A stretch of DNA of 29,933 nucleotides, taken from positions 1 through 29,933 of the forward strand of contig JBPCTC010000076.1 in the NCBI GenBank assembly GCA_051006535.1, written 5' to 3'. Source of the DNA: Minisyncoccia bacterium (GTDB lineage: Bacteria > Patescibacteriota > Minisyncoccia > Phycocordibacterales > UBA9973). The position numbers were made by a program, and so were the translations under genes. The notes under the pieces are model-generated. The model searched no databases. It saw only the letters and a program-made list of their open reading frames with translations, and was not told where the DNA came from. Each line of letters starts with the position of its first letter. The stretch's first letter is position 1. Shown here in pieces: positions 19,905 through 29,933 of the stretch.

Positions 19905-20327
19905 ATGAAAACATTACACAAATTATTTATGTCAGTAGTAGTTGTGCCACTGTCGTTGCTCTGCTCACCAGTAACCAACCAACCACAACCTACAGATGTA
20001 AACATAACTATAAACGACGTTTCTGTTAAAGAAATGATTAAATGTGTTGTGCCTGCTTTTTATCACAACCCACAAGAAATAAGCACAGTAGTGCAAATGG
20101 AGAGTGGTTATAATATAAATGCAGTTCACGATGGTGGTTCAGGTAAAGGAATAACTGGCTTTCACAAAGATACTTTCGATAGGTGGAATAAACAGTCAGG
20201 ACTAAACCTAAACTACGATAGCTCTATGGACCAAATAAAACTGATGGCGTGGGCTTTTGACCAAGGGAAAAGCTATAAAGATGACTGGACTACTTGGCAA
20301 CGTTTGCACAAGAAGGGTATTTATTAG
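19905..20327 (+). CDS. Secreted/anchored lytic transglycosylase-like protein
   Basis: N-terminal hydrophobic signal; VVQMESGYNINAVHDGGSGKGITGF...TF SLT-like motif. Confidence 0.7.
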   Translation: MKTLHKLFMSVVVVPLSLLCSPVTNQPQPTDVNITINDVSVKEMIKCVVPAFYHNPQEISTVVQMESGYNINAVHDGGSGKGITGFHKDTFDRWNKQSGLNLNYDSSMDQIKLMAWAFDQGKSYKDDWTTWQRLHKKGIY

Positions 20328-20373
20328 ATAATATAATAGCGATATATCGATTATCGTAAATTTTGTCCAACAT

Positions 20374-20408
20374 AAAAAACACCACCTTATTACGGGTGGT
20401 GTTGTTGG
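20374..20408. terminator. Terminator between convergent units (probably bidirectional)
   Basis: AACACCACC(20378-86)/GGTGGTGTT(20395-403) stem; A6 run on the left gives a U tail on the minus strand. Confidence 0.75.
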
Positions 20409-20437
20409 TTTAGGGGGTAGTTTCTGCACCTACCCAC

Positions 20438-20755
20438 CTAACGACTTCCTTTTAAAGATGCCTTGATTGCGATAGTACGTTCAACTAAACGCACGACTTC
20501 TAATAAAGGGAGGTTTTTGAATAGGAGTTTCCATTGTGGAGTTTCCTTGTGCTTATGCCAATACCTGTGCATATCGTACACAATTTCGTCTAACGTATGG
20601 TTAAAGAAAATTGCGTGGTAAGCACTGTGTTTATCTCGCCACAGGTGTAACTTGTTAGAAGGACAGTTCATTTTCTTATGACTAGAACATCGTACTTTAG
20701 GTGTAATGTGATGGGTTGTCATAAAGGTGTTGCGGTGGGGGTGTTTGATACACAT
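20438..20755 (-). CDS. HNH-like His-rich protein
   Basis: THHITPKVR...NCPSNKLHLWRDKHSAYHAIF matches the HH-x-P...N...H...H pattern. Confidence 0.55.
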   Translation of the reverse strand: MCIKHPHRNTFMTTHHITPKVRCSSHKKMNCPSNKLHLWRDKHSAYHAIFFNHTLDEIVYDMHRYWHKHKETPQWKLLFKNLPLLEVVRLVERTIAIKASLKGSR

Positions 20756-27347: not shown

Positions 27348-27600
27348 AAAAGTAAACTTGTACTTGGTGGCAGATAATGAAGACTACAGTCCAGAAAGTG
27401 CAGGAAGAGCCTTGAGAACATTAGCAGAAGATAATGAAATACTCGTAGATTATTACAAAGGCAAACGTAAACAGAAACTAGCACGATATTCAAGGAACGG
27501 AACACCAGTAATAAAGTCTAAGAGAATAGAGTACACGATAGAAGACAGGCCAGACGGAACAAGAGTCGCAAGAATTATAAACCCAGAAATACTAAATTAA
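27298..27600 (+). CDS. Putative winged-helix DNA-binding protein
   Basis: YSPESAGRALRTLAEDNEI recognition-helix-like segment followed by beta strands. Confidence 0.5.
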   Translation: MKEILLKYLNEHEGWHKKVNLYLVADNEDYSPESAGRALRTLAEDNEILVDYYKGKRKQKLARYSRNGTPVIKSKRIEYTIEDRPDGTRVARIINPEILN

Positions 27601-27780
27601 ATGACAAAAGACAAAGAAAAAAAGATATTAAAGTTACTAGAAATAGGACTAAATAACTCACAGATAGCAAACAGATTAAAACTTTCAAGGTTTCAAGTGT
27701 CATGGTTTCTAAAAGGTAACCAAGATGCTGACATAGCAAAGGCAAAGTATATAACAATGATTAAAAGTATTATTAGTTAA
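27601..27780 (+). CDS. HTH protein (59 aa; not in ORF track)
   Basis: KILKLLEIGLNNSQIANRLKLSRFQVSWFL is a classic HTH pattern. Confidence 0.7.
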   Translation: MTKDKEKKILKLLEIGLNNSQIANRLKLSRFQVSWFLKGNQDADIAKAKYITMIKSIIS

Positions 27781-27788
27781 GTTTAACT

Positions 27789-27860
27789 GGTGTATCGTTT
27801 CCTAGAGATTGAAGAGATGCTTTGAATTTGAACTCCCTCAATCCTAGGTAACGGTACATC
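27789..27860 (+). other. Long imperfect intergenic hairpin (72 nt)
   Basis: GGTGTATCGTT/AACGGTACATC (11 bp, 2 G-U), CCTAG/CTAGG, GATTGA/TCAATC, GAG/CTC. Confidence 0.7.
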
Positions 27861-27869
27861 AAAAAAAAT

Positions 27870-28052
27870 ATGCGAAACAAATTTAAAGGTAAATGTGAAA
27901 ATTGTGGTTGTGAAGTTGCTCCAAAACAAGGTTATTGGCGACTTGTACCAAAACAAACTCGTGATTTTACTGGTTTAAGGTGTAAAAAATGTGGAGTAAC
28001 ATATAAAAGCCATATAAAAGAAATTGAACAAAGGAAATTAGTAGTTAGTTAA
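27870..28052 (+). CDS. Zinc-ribbon protein (60 aa)
   Basis: CENC...CKKC. Confidence 0.7.
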   Translation: MRNKFKGKCENCGCEVAPKQGYWRLVPKQTRDFTGLRCKKCGVTYKSHIKEIEQRKLVVS

Positions 28053-28071
28053 TCAAGGCTCATATCCTACT

Positions 28072-28287
28072 ATGGAATATAAAATGATAATAACAATAAT
28101 AGGAATTTTATTACAGGTATTAGTAGCTTATATATGGTATAAAATAGGTTACAATACTTTTAAAAGTAAATCAAAAGAAGCTTCAATAACATATAGCCAA
28201 TACAATAAACCTGTTGCTTTCTCTGAATGGGTAAATGATAAATTAGAAATTACAGTTTATGATGAAAAAGTAGTTAAATTGAAATAA
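28072..28287 (+). CDS. Membrane-anchored hypothetical protein
   Basis: N-terminal TM IITIIGILLQVLVAYIWY. Confidence 0.65.
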   Translation: MEYKMIITIIGILLQVLVAYIWYKIGYNTFKSKSKEASITYSQYNKPVAFSEWVNDKLEITVYDEKVVKLK

Positions 28288-28292
28288 ATCCT

Positions 28293-28451
28293 ATGAAAAA
28301 GAAAACAACAAAAAAAGAACTTAAAAAGCAGATAGTAGAAATACATATCTATGTGCATCAGAATAATGGTATTTATGTAACACCAAATGGAGGTGGCAGT
28401 GGAACAACACCAATAAATCCTTGTAATCCACCTTATTATGTAACTTGCTAA
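28293..28451 (+). CDS. Small protein (52 aa; not in ORF track)
   Basis: MKKKTTKKELKKQIVEIHIYVH...PYYVTC; starts at a TAAATCCTATG boundary motif. Confidence 0.65.
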   Translation: MKKKTTKKELKKQIVEIHIYVHQNNGIYVTPNGGGSGTTPINPCNPPYYVTC

Positions 28452-28456
28452 ATCCT

Positions 28457-28690
28457 ATGAAAGAACAAGAAATAAGAGAAAAATGGAAAGAATTTTCTGA
28501 AACACCTATGTGGCAAAATCAAGATGAGTTTACTAATAATATCGCCGACTTCTTCCTCTCCCTCCGCAAATCTGAACTTAATTCTATAATGGAGGAAATT
28601 GAAAAAGAAAAAACTAGATGTAGTGATGTTCTTCATAAAGAATGTTGTGACGACATTATCAAAATCCTAACCTCCCATATTGGGGAATAA
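28457..28690 (+). CDS. Hypothetical protein
   Basis: Start MKEQEIREKW at a TAAATCCTATG motif. Confidence 0.65.
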   Translation: MKEQEIREKWKEFSETPMWQNQDEFTNNIADFFLSLRKSELNSIMEEIEKEKTRCSDVLHKECCDDIIKILTSHIGE

Positions 28691-28693
28691 CCT

Positions 28694-28879
28694 ATGACAC
28701 AAGAAGAATTAGAACTTATAAAGAGAATACGAAACTATTTGCCTTATAATGGAGGTGCTATGGTAAATAACGCAGTATATATTAGCCCCGCACAACAGTT
28801 AAGAAATTCAGCAGATAGAATGGAAGAACAACAACGTGATGAACAATTATTAGACGAACTTATTAAGAAGTATTCATAA
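28694..28879 (+). CDS. Hypothetical protein (61 aa)
   Basis: CCTATG start; operonic packing. Confidence 0.65.
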   Translation: MTQEELELIKRIRNYLPYNGGAMVNNAVYISPAQQLRNSADRMEEQQRDEQLLDELIKKYS

Positions 28880-28883
28880 CCCT

Positions 28884-29165
28884 ATGACACACACAGATAA
28901 AATACTAGCAGAGTTTGATGAGAAGTTTGCTAAAAATGGATTAGTAGAAGAAGATATAGATAATCCGTATTCATCTGAAATTATCAAATCCTTCATCACC
29001 CAAGCACTTAAAGACCAAGTGAATGAGATTGGGGAGAAGATTGAGAAACTGCAAAAATATAATGGTATATATTATATAGATGAAGACACTGGAATTAAAA
29101 TATATACCTTAGATGGTGGTGTAACTACAACTGATATTAAAAATTTATTAGAAGAATATAAATAA
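28884..29165 (+). CDS. Hypothetical protein (93 aa)
   Basis: CCTATG start; ILAEFDEKF...IKSFITQAL motif. Confidence 0.65.
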   Translation: MTHTDKILAEFDEKFAKNGLVEEDIDNPYSSEIIKSFITQALKDQVNEIGEKIEKLQKYNGIYYIDEDTGIKIYTLDGGVTTTDIKNLLEEYK

Positions 29166-29168
29166 GAT

Positions 29169-29528
29169 ATGACAAGAGAAATAAAATTTAGGGCATGGGA
29201 TGGATTAAAGATGATTGATAATCCTAAAATTGGAGCTATGGAAGGTGTATATAATTATAGTATAAATAATGAATTTGCAAATCCAGAAGATAATACAGTT
29301 TTTATGCAATACACAGGACTCCACGATAAAAATGGAAAGGAAATTTTTGAAGGGGATGTTGCTGAAATATGCAATAGTGAATATAGGGTCATGGAATGTA
29401 TTTATGAAGCCCCATGTTTTTACTGGAAATCAGAAAATGACAGCTACTCGGGTGAATGGAAAGGAGAAGATGTAAAAGTCATCGGCAATGTACAATCTAA
29501 CCCCGAATTATTAGAACAACAGTCGTAA
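29169..29528 (+). CDS. yopX: YopX-family protein
   Basis: REIKFRAWD; MQYTGLHDKNGKEIFEGDV; VIGNVQSNPELL. Confidence 0.9.
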   Translation: MTREIKFRAWDGLKMIDNPKIGAMEGVYNYSINNEFANPEDNTVFMQYTGLHDKNGKEIFEGDVAEICNSEYRVMECIYEAPCFYWKSENDSYSGEWKGEDVKVIGNVQSNPELLEQQS

Positions 29529-29539
29529 ACTTATCAACT

Positions 29540-29648
29540 TAATGGTGGAGTTCGTTCACTCTTGGCTCATCAGAAATAAAGCGAATGATGAGAGGAAGCA
29601 AAAGAACACCAAGTGAAAGACTTGGAGGGTGAGCAAGCTCCATCATTA
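29540..29648 (+). ncRNA. Candidate three-way-junction structured RNA
   Basis: P1 13+9 bp with several G-U pairs, P2 CTCATCA/TGATGAG, P3 CCAAGT/ACTTGG with a GAAAG loop. Confidence 0.6.
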
Positions 29649-29679
29649 CAATCCCATTATCAAGTAAATAAATAACATT

Positions 29680-29814
29680 ATGGAAACAATAATATGTAAA
29701 CAATGTGGGTCTAAAGCAACAAAAGGAAAATATAAAGATGGTGTCATTGATTATTTATGTGCCAAGTGTAATATTACTTTCCTAGATAACGAAGAACAAA
29801 CAATTATTAGTTAG
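29680..29814 (+). CDS. Zinc-ribbon micro-protein (44 aa; not in ORF track)
   Basis: METIICKQCG...YLCAKC. Confidence 0.7.
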   Translation: METIICKQCGSKATKGKYKDGVIDYLCAKCNITFLDNEEQTIIS

Positions 29815-29826
29815 TTAAATAACATT

Positions 29827-29933
29827 ATGACAGGAGAAAACACAGGCAAAAAAGTAGTTAAGTGTCCAATTTGTGGAAAAAGATACATTTCAGATACACA
29901 AGAATATGTAAATCATCTACAAATTGAGAAGTT
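29827..29933 (+). CDS. Partial zinc-finger-like protein (runs off the window)
   Basis: MTGENTGKKVVKCPICGK.Y......NH. Confidence 0.6.
   Translation, partial: MTGENTGKKVVKCPICGKRYISDTQEYVNHLQIEK

What the first reader, a model, noticed from the sequence alone, without database searches (positions are those of the whole stretch)
29540..29648. Three-way-junction RNA with extensive G-U pairing downstream of yopX
Seen: P1a TAATGGTGGAGTT(29540-52)/AGCTCCATCATTA(29636-48), 13 bp with 2 G-U; P1b GTTCACTCT(29554-62)/AGGGTGAGC(29626-34), 9 bp with 2 G-U; P2 CTCATCA(29566-72)/TGATGAG(29586-92); a purine-rich 16-nt junction AGGAAGCAAAAGAACA; and P3 CCAAGT(29609-14)/ACTTGG(29620-25) with a GAAAG loop stacked on P1. 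It is GC-rich relative to its surroundings and flanked by TTATCAA on both sides. Wobble pairs indicate selection on RNA rather than DNA symmetry. I cannot match it to tRNA, hammerhead or a riboswitch I recognise. Inference: a possibly novel phage ncRNA motif (ribozyme, protein-binding or regulatory element).
Basis: partly seen in the sequence, partly recalled or inferred. Interest (0 to 1): 0.68.

Follow-up and report, generated by a model that had tools for sequence, protein, structure and literature searches.

The report
Anticodon-less tRNA-shaped phage RNA on stalk
A phage of ultra-small bacteria carries, between two accessory genes, a strongly folded 109-base RNA whose core is laid out like a transfer RNA without an anticodon arm, held in a long double-stranded stalk; it matches no catalogued RNA family, I found no second copy, and its job (most likely a tRNA mimic cut out of the operon transcript) is untested.

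Summary
The fold is real and as described: z -6.2 on the + strand, -0.9 on the other; no shuffled window gave such a stalk (0/267). A loose tRNA-frame descriptor over 3.1 Mb hit 25 true tRNAs and this element only; structure-preserving shuffles give p about 1e-5 (post hoc). It is not a decoding tRNA: no anticodon arm, no G18G19, no TψC. The acceptor is extended by 15 more pairs that mask the 3' end. Best reading: a tRNA-derived mimic released by RNase III, then RNase P. The RNase III sequence fit is not significant (p 0.19). No Rfam match, no ribozyme core, and no homologue in any search, so covariation is untested. Two look-alike stalked T-loop RNAs occur in one related phage (homology not shown). 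The scan has noted other stalked, anticodon-less tRNA-like phage RNAs on unrelated DNA.

The parts
29169..29528 (+). yopX gene (119 aa), upstream neighbour in the accessory operon; stop codon 11 nt before the element
   Evidence: PF09643 E 1.4e-19
29540..29555 (+). 5' strand of the outer stalk (extension of the acceptor stem); C29553 is the mismatch; 29554-55 are tRNA positions -2, -1
   Evidence: MFE and centroid; shuffle test
29556..29562 (+). acceptor-like stem, 5' strand (positions 1-7, U1)
29563..29569 (+). TGGCTCA in the register of tRNA U8-A14
   Evidence: p 1.8e-4 against a matrix of 23 host tRNAs; 5e-4 in structure-preserving shuffles
29566..29592 (+). P2: 7-bp helix with a 13-nt A-rich loop, in place of the D arm (no G18G19)
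   Evidence: ARAGORN-type cloverleaf alternative is far less stable, -9.1 vs -21.7 kcal/mol
29593..29608 (+). 16-nt purine-rich linker in place of anticodon and variable arms
   Evidence: unpaired in the ensemble
29609..29625 (+). T-arm-like hairpin: 5 bp closed by G53-C61, loop UGAAAGA (YGNRA T-loop plus 2 nt), stacked on the acceptor with no linker
   Evidence: only such hairpin in the window; 7 in 508 kb of related loci; T-loop consensus from 10.1101/2022.12.26.521914
29626..29636 (+). acceptor 3' strand (66-72), discriminator G73 (29633) and C-A-A (29634-36), as in the host's tRNA-Asn and tRNA-Gln genes
29633..29648 (+). 3' strand of the outer stalk, masking positions 73-76; predicted RNase III cuts at 29550/51 and 29639/40 (inferred)
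29542..29616 (+). 24-codon ORF starting in the stalk and stopping in the T loop; probably incidental
   Evidence: read; no equivalent in L305
29680..29814 (+). 44-aa zinc-ribbon ORF, downstream neighbour; its relatives do not carry this RNA upstream

Best explanation
A tRNA-derived, anticodon-less tRNA mimic embedded in the phage's early/accessory operon transcript. Shown: the fold, and a tRNA skeleton (acceptor 7 bp + T-arm 5 bp coaxial stack, U8-A14, G73-CAA) whose acceptor is extended by 15 more positions that mask the 3' end. Inferred: host RNase III cuts the 22-bp stalk (about 29550/51 and 29639/40), which splits the operon mRNA and frees a pre-tRNA-like RNA; RNase P then cuts at 29555/56, the 3' end is trimmed to G73 and CCA is added, giving an 81-nt RNA. 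Inferred, weakest step: lacking an anticodon it cannot decode, so it acts through its acceptor/elbow surface as a decoy or partner for a tRNA-recognising protein (for example a defence toxin that attacks tRNA 3' ends). My odds: tRNA skeleton is real about 0.75; nuclease release about 0.5; trans-acting decoy about 0.3.
For: Fold z -6.2, + strand only; 0/267 shuffles. Positions 8-14 p 1.8e-4, 73-76 p 0.016, 53-61 p 0.025 against host tRNA matrices. Joint p 1.5e-5 for 8-14 plus T loop in 400,000 structure-preserving shuffles. A loose tRNA-frame descriptor found 25 ARAGORN-called tRNAs and this element only in 3.14 Mb; relaxed ARAGORN picks the same acceptor and T-arm frame, as a possible pseudogene. 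The T loop has moved to UGAAA, the commonest non-tRNA T-loop, while both stems stay fully paired. The bin encodes an intact RNase III, RNase P RNA and a CCA/poly(A)-polymerase-family gene, and its tRNA-Ile(UAU) sits in a similar extended stalk. 22 bp is the ideal RNase III substrate length (PMC3867540); a 7-bp acceptor is a main RNase P determinant (PMC4201824).
Against: No homologue, so no covariation and no proof of selection (61/69, 104, 105, 137); the closest complete relative (92% capsid identity) lacks it. The tRNA tests were designed after seeing the element. No G18G19, no TψC, and A at position 60 can pair with U54, which the energy model prefers (-21.7 vs -18.8); FMN/cobalamin T-loops prefer a pyrimidine there. 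RNase III consensus match is 12/16 but p 0.19. No promoter-like site of its own. The bin is not proven to be the host. No partner protein identified.
Confidence: 0.45

Rival explanations
1. A cis-acting mRNA processing signal only: RNase III (and perhaps RNase P on the tRNA-like cap) cuts the long accessory-operon transcript to set the stability or translation of the flanking genes, as at phage T7 or lambda RNase III sites and in mascRNA-type punctuation (own knowledge); the released piece has no job.
For: Lies on the sense strand between closely packed co-oriented genes with no promoter-like site of its own; 22-bp stalk; host RNase III; other long stalks with one 1x1 mismatch in related phages (L305, L306, L217).
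Against: A plain hairpin would do; it does not explain the tRNA register of positions 8-14 and 73-76. Consensus fit not significant. Relatives of the downstream gene lack the element directly upstream.
Confidence: 0.24
2. A relic: a decayed tRNA gene or a miniature mobile inverted-repeat element (TA-flanked, Correia/ERIC/RUP-like) carried in as a cassette, with no present function.
For: Single copy, absent from close relatives; TA at both ends; all five non-Watson-Crick stalk positions are transitions; relaxed ARAGORN labels it a possible pseudogene; TTATCAA on both sides.
Against: No second copy in the bin or about 900 related genomes; decay should not leave acceptor and T stems intact, build a perfect new 7-bp helix and land on an alternative T-loop consensus; direct repeats are not flush with the inverted repeat.
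Confidence: 0.13
3. A regulatory switch on the mRNA (uORF-coupled, protein-binding or antitermination element) for the downstream genes.
For: An ATG at 29542 sits where the next gene start would be expected and its frame stops in the T loop; alternative pairing of 29556-65 with P3 is possible during transcription.
Against: No terminator on the + strand; no start codon behind the GGAGG in the 3' strand; the final fold dominates the ensemble; next gene starts 32 nt past the stalk; no loop-loop complementarity; no Rfam riboswitch.
Confidence: 0.08
4. An intrinsic terminator for antisense transcription: P3 followed by the U-rich complement of the purine linker.
For: The only terminator-like hit in 27500-29933 is P3 on the minus strand.
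Against: One hit is what shuffles give (mean 0.9); the minus strand does not fold significantly; it leaves P1 and P2 unexplained.
Confidence: 0.04
5. A self-cleaving ribozyme of a new class.
For: Compact three-way junction with a long purine-rich linker, in a phage accessory region.
Against: No Rfam ribozyme match; no pseudoknot pairing between loops; by inspection no hammerhead, twister, pistol, hatchet, hairpin or HDV core.
Confidence: 0.03
6. Chance folding.
For: Singleton.
Against: z -6.2; 0/267 window shuffles reach the stalk score.
Confidence: 0.02

Closest known systems
Canonical tRNA (Rfam RF00005), especially the binned host's CCA-less tRNA-Asn and tRNA-Gln genes
   Same: 7-bp acceptor with U1-A72, G73 then CAA, U8-A14, 5-bp/7-nt T arm with G53-C61, U54, R57, A58, similar length (78 nt to position 73).
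   Different: No anticodon arm, no G18G19, loop UGAAAGA instead of UUCRANY, D region re-paired as a 7-bp helix; no tRNA call by ARAGORN at default or by Rfam.
Bacterial Y RNAs YrlA/Yrn1 (Rfam RF02553; PMC4201824)
   Same: A tRNA-like domain on a long stem formed by the 5' and 3' ends; found in phages; M. smegmatis YrlA is cut by RNase P and gets CCA.
   Different: YrlA is circularly permuted (acceptor closed between T and D loops); here the order is that of normal tRNA and the long stem extends the acceptor. No GNCGAA motif; no Ro60/TROVE gene found in the contig or bin.
RNase III processing stalks (T7 R1.1, rRNA operon stems; PMC1540722, PMC3867540)
   Same: 22-bp helix, G-U pairs, one mismatch, no G-C pair next to the predicted cut.
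   Different: Closes a tRNA-like three-way junction; consensus fit 12/16 is not above chance (p 0.19); cleavage untested.
tmRNA tRNA-like domain and mascRNA (own knowledge, not tested by alignment)
   Same: Acceptor plus T arm without a proper anticodon arm, matured by RNase P.
   Different: No G3-U70/A73 alanine identity, no tag reading frame, no tmRNA call; mascRNA is eukaryotic and has no stalk.
T4 RNA C and RNA D (PMC3014915)
   Same: Small phage RNAs tied to tRNA biology with unknown role.
   Different: They lie in a tRNA gene cluster; this contig has no tRNA genes; no Rfam or sequence match.

Membership tests
canonical tRNA | 7-bp acceptor stem with discriminator and (encoded or added) CCA | tested here: met
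   29556-62/29626-32, G73, CAA as in host genes
canonical tRNA | U8, R9, G10, Y11, A14 | tested here: met
   TGGCTCA, p 1.8e-4
canonical tRNA | D loop with G18G19 | tested here: not met
   no GG in the P2 loop
canonical tRNA | 5-bp anticodon stem with 7-nt loop, U33, R37 | tested here: not met
   only a 3-4-pair irregular stem can be drawn; cloverleaf -9.1 vs -21.7 kcal/mol
canonical tRNA | T arm 5 bp + 7 nt with G53-C61, U54, R57, A58 | tested here: met
   29609-25
canonical tRNA | U55 (pseudouridine) and C56 | tested here: not met
   G55, A56
YrlA-type Y RNA | GNCGAA(N)G motif near the 5' end | tested here: not met
   absent from the 5' strand
YrlA-type Y RNA | Ro60/Rsr gene adjacent | tested here: not met
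   PF05731 not found in the bin, 91% complete; contig lacks about 5 kb of the phage
YrlA-type Y RNA | permuted T-acceptor-D order; Rfam RF02553 match | tested here: not met
   normal order; no Rfam hit
RNase III substrate | about 22-bp near-regular helix | tested here: met
   22 pairs plus one mismatch (PMC3867540)
RNase III substrate | proximal/distal box sequence preferences | tested here: inconclusive
   12/16 consensus positions, p 0.19
RNase III substrate | staggered cleavage with 2-nt 3' overhang | not testable with these tools
   needs an in vitro or RNA-end experiment
tmRNA | G3-U70, A73, tag ORF; ARAGORN/Rfam call | tested here: not met
   A3-U70, G73; no call
catalogued ribozymes and riboswitches | match to an Rfam covariance model | tested here: not met
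   best E about 6
miniature inverted-repeat element | multiple copies and flush target-site duplication | tested here: not met
   single copy in the bin; repeats 2 and 8 nt off the ends; a TA duplication cannot be excluded

The most novel reading that the evidence does not exclude
Small phages of ultra-small (CPR-type) bacteria carry exchangeable RNA cassettes in which a tRNA has been remodelled into an anticodon-less mimic with a riboswitch-type UGAAA T-loop; the stalk keeps its 3' end masked until RNase III cuts, and the released, CCA-ended RNA sponges a host defence enzyme that attacks tRNA ends.
Probability: 0.15. Interest if true: 0.82.

Novelty: new variant of a known kind. Interest (0 to 1): 0.5.

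Why it matters
Phage tRNA genes are thought to offset host tRNA destruction, but RNAs that keep the tRNA shape and drop the anticodon point to a different use: acting on tRNA-handling enzymes rather than decoding. This one is invisible to ARAGORN and Rfam because its T loop has switched to the UGAAA type, so a class of such mimics could be systematically missed. It is small and makes exact, cheap predictions (RNase III, RNase P and CCA-addition sites). The value is limited for now by its being a singleton with no covariation and no known partner.

Tried and rejected
Homologue searches, all negative: exact-pattern scans of viral contigs, metagenomes (76 hits, all chance by alignment and fold) and GTDB genomes; BLAST of phages and plasmids; single-sequence covariance model R1 on capsid- and ERF-related phage loci and full records and on 450 genome slots of the bin's family, order and phylum (weak hits rejected); BLAST of 460 related genome slots; pattern scans (chance level; 137, own only). 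R1 is built from one sequence, so distant homologues could be missed. The neighbouring proteins are singletons in the protein collection. Homology to the L305 look-alike was tested and is not significant (stalk p 0.16, inner part p 0.71). RNase III consensus not significant. Kissing loops or pseudoknots: none possible. From memory and by inspection I considered and dropped SRP helix 8, hammerhead (CUGAUGAG lies on the non-folding strand and has no stem II), twister, c-di-GMP-I, glnA, phi29 pRNA, attC, retron msr-msd (no reverse transcriptase among the ORFs scanned) and ERIC. The minus-strand 54-aa ORF gave no usable Atlas hit. Literature searches found no YopX-linked RNA motif.

Full report
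Context. The window is a whole 29.9-kb contig in a 526-kb, 91%-complete bin; small genome sizes across its order suggest a CPR-type bacterium (inference). The contig is a phage: capsid, lytic, methyltransferase and ERF genes. A relative with 92% capsid identity is a complete 35.4-kb genome, so about 5 kb is probably missing here. The element lies on the sense strand of a dense run of small accessory genes, 11 nt after the yopX stop (PF09643) and 32 nt before a 44-aa zinc-ribbon ORF. No tRNA gene is called on the contig. That the bin is the phage's host is not proven.

Observation. The + strand folds at -44.8 kcal/mol, z -6.17, with MFE equal to centroid; the - strand gives z -0.94; as DNA the fold is weaker (z -2.7). 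The 22-pair stalk was never matched in 267 block-shuffled windows. No loop-loop pairing is possible and no alternative fold competes once the 3' strand is made. The G-U argument alone is weak: the five non-Watson-Crick positions are all transitions, four wobbling on + and one on -. Rfam gives nothing better than E about 6.

What it is. P3 can be read as 5 bp closed by G-C with a 7-nt loop UGAAAGA, that is a YGNRA T-loop plus two bulged bases, the form found in FMN and cobalamin riboswitches (10.1101/2022.12.26.521914). It is the only such hairpin in the window. It joins the 3' strand of P1 with no linker, as a T arm joins an acceptor stem. Numbering from there as in tRNA, positions 66-72 pair with 29556-62 (U1-A72), position 73 is G and 74-76 read CAA; the bin's tRNA genes mostly lack CCA and end N-CAA, and its tRNA-Asn and tRNA-Gln begin with U1-A72 and end G-CAA. 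The seven bases after the acceptor 5' strand are TGGCTCA, the U8-A14 consensus (p 1.8e-4 against 23 host tRNAs; 73-76 p 0.016; 53-61 p 0.025). Shuffling pairs and loop letters while keeping the fold gave positions 8-14 and the T-loop together in 1.5 of 100,000 trials. A loose descriptor for this frame, run on 3.14 Mb of fetched loci and the bin, returned 25 ARAGORN-called tRNAs and this element, nothing else. These tests were designed after I saw the pattern, so the numbers overstate; the margin is still large. It is not a decoding tRNA: there is no anticodon arm, no G18G19, positions 55-56 are G-A, and the best cloverleaf is 12 kcal/mol worse than the P2 fold. A at position 60 could pair with U54, which the energy model prefers and which departs from the riboswitch T-loop consensus; probing must decide.

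The stalk. The acceptor is extended by 15 further positions, so that U-1 pairs with G73, G-2 with C74, and C-3 faces A75. The 3' end is thus masked. Total helix length equals the two-turn ideal RNase III substrate (PMC3867540), with no G-C pair at the positions where such pairs block E. coli RNase III in my register (PMC1540722). The best fit to the weak E. coli consensus (PMC4357697) is 12 of 16 positions and places cuts at 29550/51 and 29639/40, but shuffled pairs do as well 19% of the time. The bin encodes an intact RNase III, RNase P RNA and a CCA/poly(A)-polymerase-family protein. One of its own tRNA genes, tRNA-Ile(UAU), sits in a similar extended acceptor stalk.

Relatives. No homologue was found by pattern, BLAST or covariance-model searches of viral, metagenome, plasmid, phage and about 900 related genomes (calls listed under Tried and rejected). 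The complete close relative lacks the element, so it is accessory. Following relatives of the downstream zinc-ribbon gene led to one phage with two look-alikes: L305:2250-2346, a 13+8-bp stalk with the same C.A mismatch, a T-loop-like UGCGA hairpin and U-CAA in the same register, just behind a sigma-70-type promoter; and L306:749-853, a 14+9-bp stalk enclosing a canonical T arm. A 'stalk plus T-loop hairpin' descriptor found these two, this element, the host tRNA-Ile and two plain repeats in 3.14 Mb. Sequence similarity between this element and L305 is not significant and L305 lacks the 8-14 motif, so they are analogues at most.

Mechanism. Most likely the operon transcript folds the stalk, RNase III cuts it, RNase P and 3' trimming give a 78-nt RNA that receives CCA, and the product presents a tRNA-like acceptor/elbow surface with no anticodon. 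Aminoacylation is unlikely for synthetases that read the anticodon, and alanine identity (G3-U70) is absent (own knowledge). A decoy or partner for a tRNA-recognising protein is the role I favour; nothing here identifies the protein. The main rival is that the cut itself, splitting the mRNA, is the function; a functionless relic is third.

Comparison. It works like bacterial tRNA mimics (YrlA, which in M. smegmatis is cut by RNase P and gets CCA; PMC4201824) but fails Y RNA membership: normal domain order, no GNCGAA motif, no Ro60 gene found. It fails tRNA and tmRNA membership. Earlier notes of this scan describe stalked or anticodon-less tRNA-like RNAs in other phages; I did not check them, no look-alike sequence was returned, and I reached both the stalk and the tRNA readings before seeing the respective notes.

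Verdict. A real, uncatalogued, tRNA-derived-looking RNA element; a new variant of the tRNA-mimic kind; single sequence, function inferred. Interest 0.5.

Noticed in passing
L305:2250-2346 (+): Stalked three-way-junction RNA (z -5.3) right behind a TTGACA-N17-TATAAT promoter and before a DNA methyltransferase gene in another small phage; no Rfam match, no BLAST match in 301 related genomes or GenBank phages.
   Followed up: partly
L306:749-853 (+): 23-bp stalk enclosing a canonical T arm stacked on a short acceptor-like helix, without D or anticodon arm; same phage as L305; no Rfam match.
   Followed up: partly
L353 (G000:C2:88-192): The bin's tRNA-Ile with the rare UAU anticodon is the only one of its tRNAs whose acceptor is extended into a 22-bp-plus stalk; the tRNA-Ile(UAU) of another genome of the order (L250) has none.
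   Followed up: partly
L217:3411-3515 (+): 26-bp stalk with one A.C mismatch just upstream of the scaffold-capsid genes of a related phage.
   Followed up: no
window:1-29933: No GATC at all in the contig, against 419 in the other 496 kb of the bin.
   Followed up: no
window:22601-22720, 20321-20480, 1241-1360: Other strongly folding non-coding stretches (z about -8, -5, -5) in a coarse scan.
   Followed up: no
L311:4789-4825 (+): abiF RNA (RF03085, above gathering score) in a phage carrying a relative of the downstream zinc-ribbon gene.
   Followed up: no
L204:1005-1196: GC-rich, apparently structured stretch just after an HNH-like gene in the closest complete relative.
   Followed up: no
window:29531-29537, 29657-29679, 29803-29826: Short repeated intergenic motifs (TTATCAA; TAAATAACATT before ATG) precede successive small genes, as if genes and the RNA were exchanged as cassettes.
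   Followed up: no
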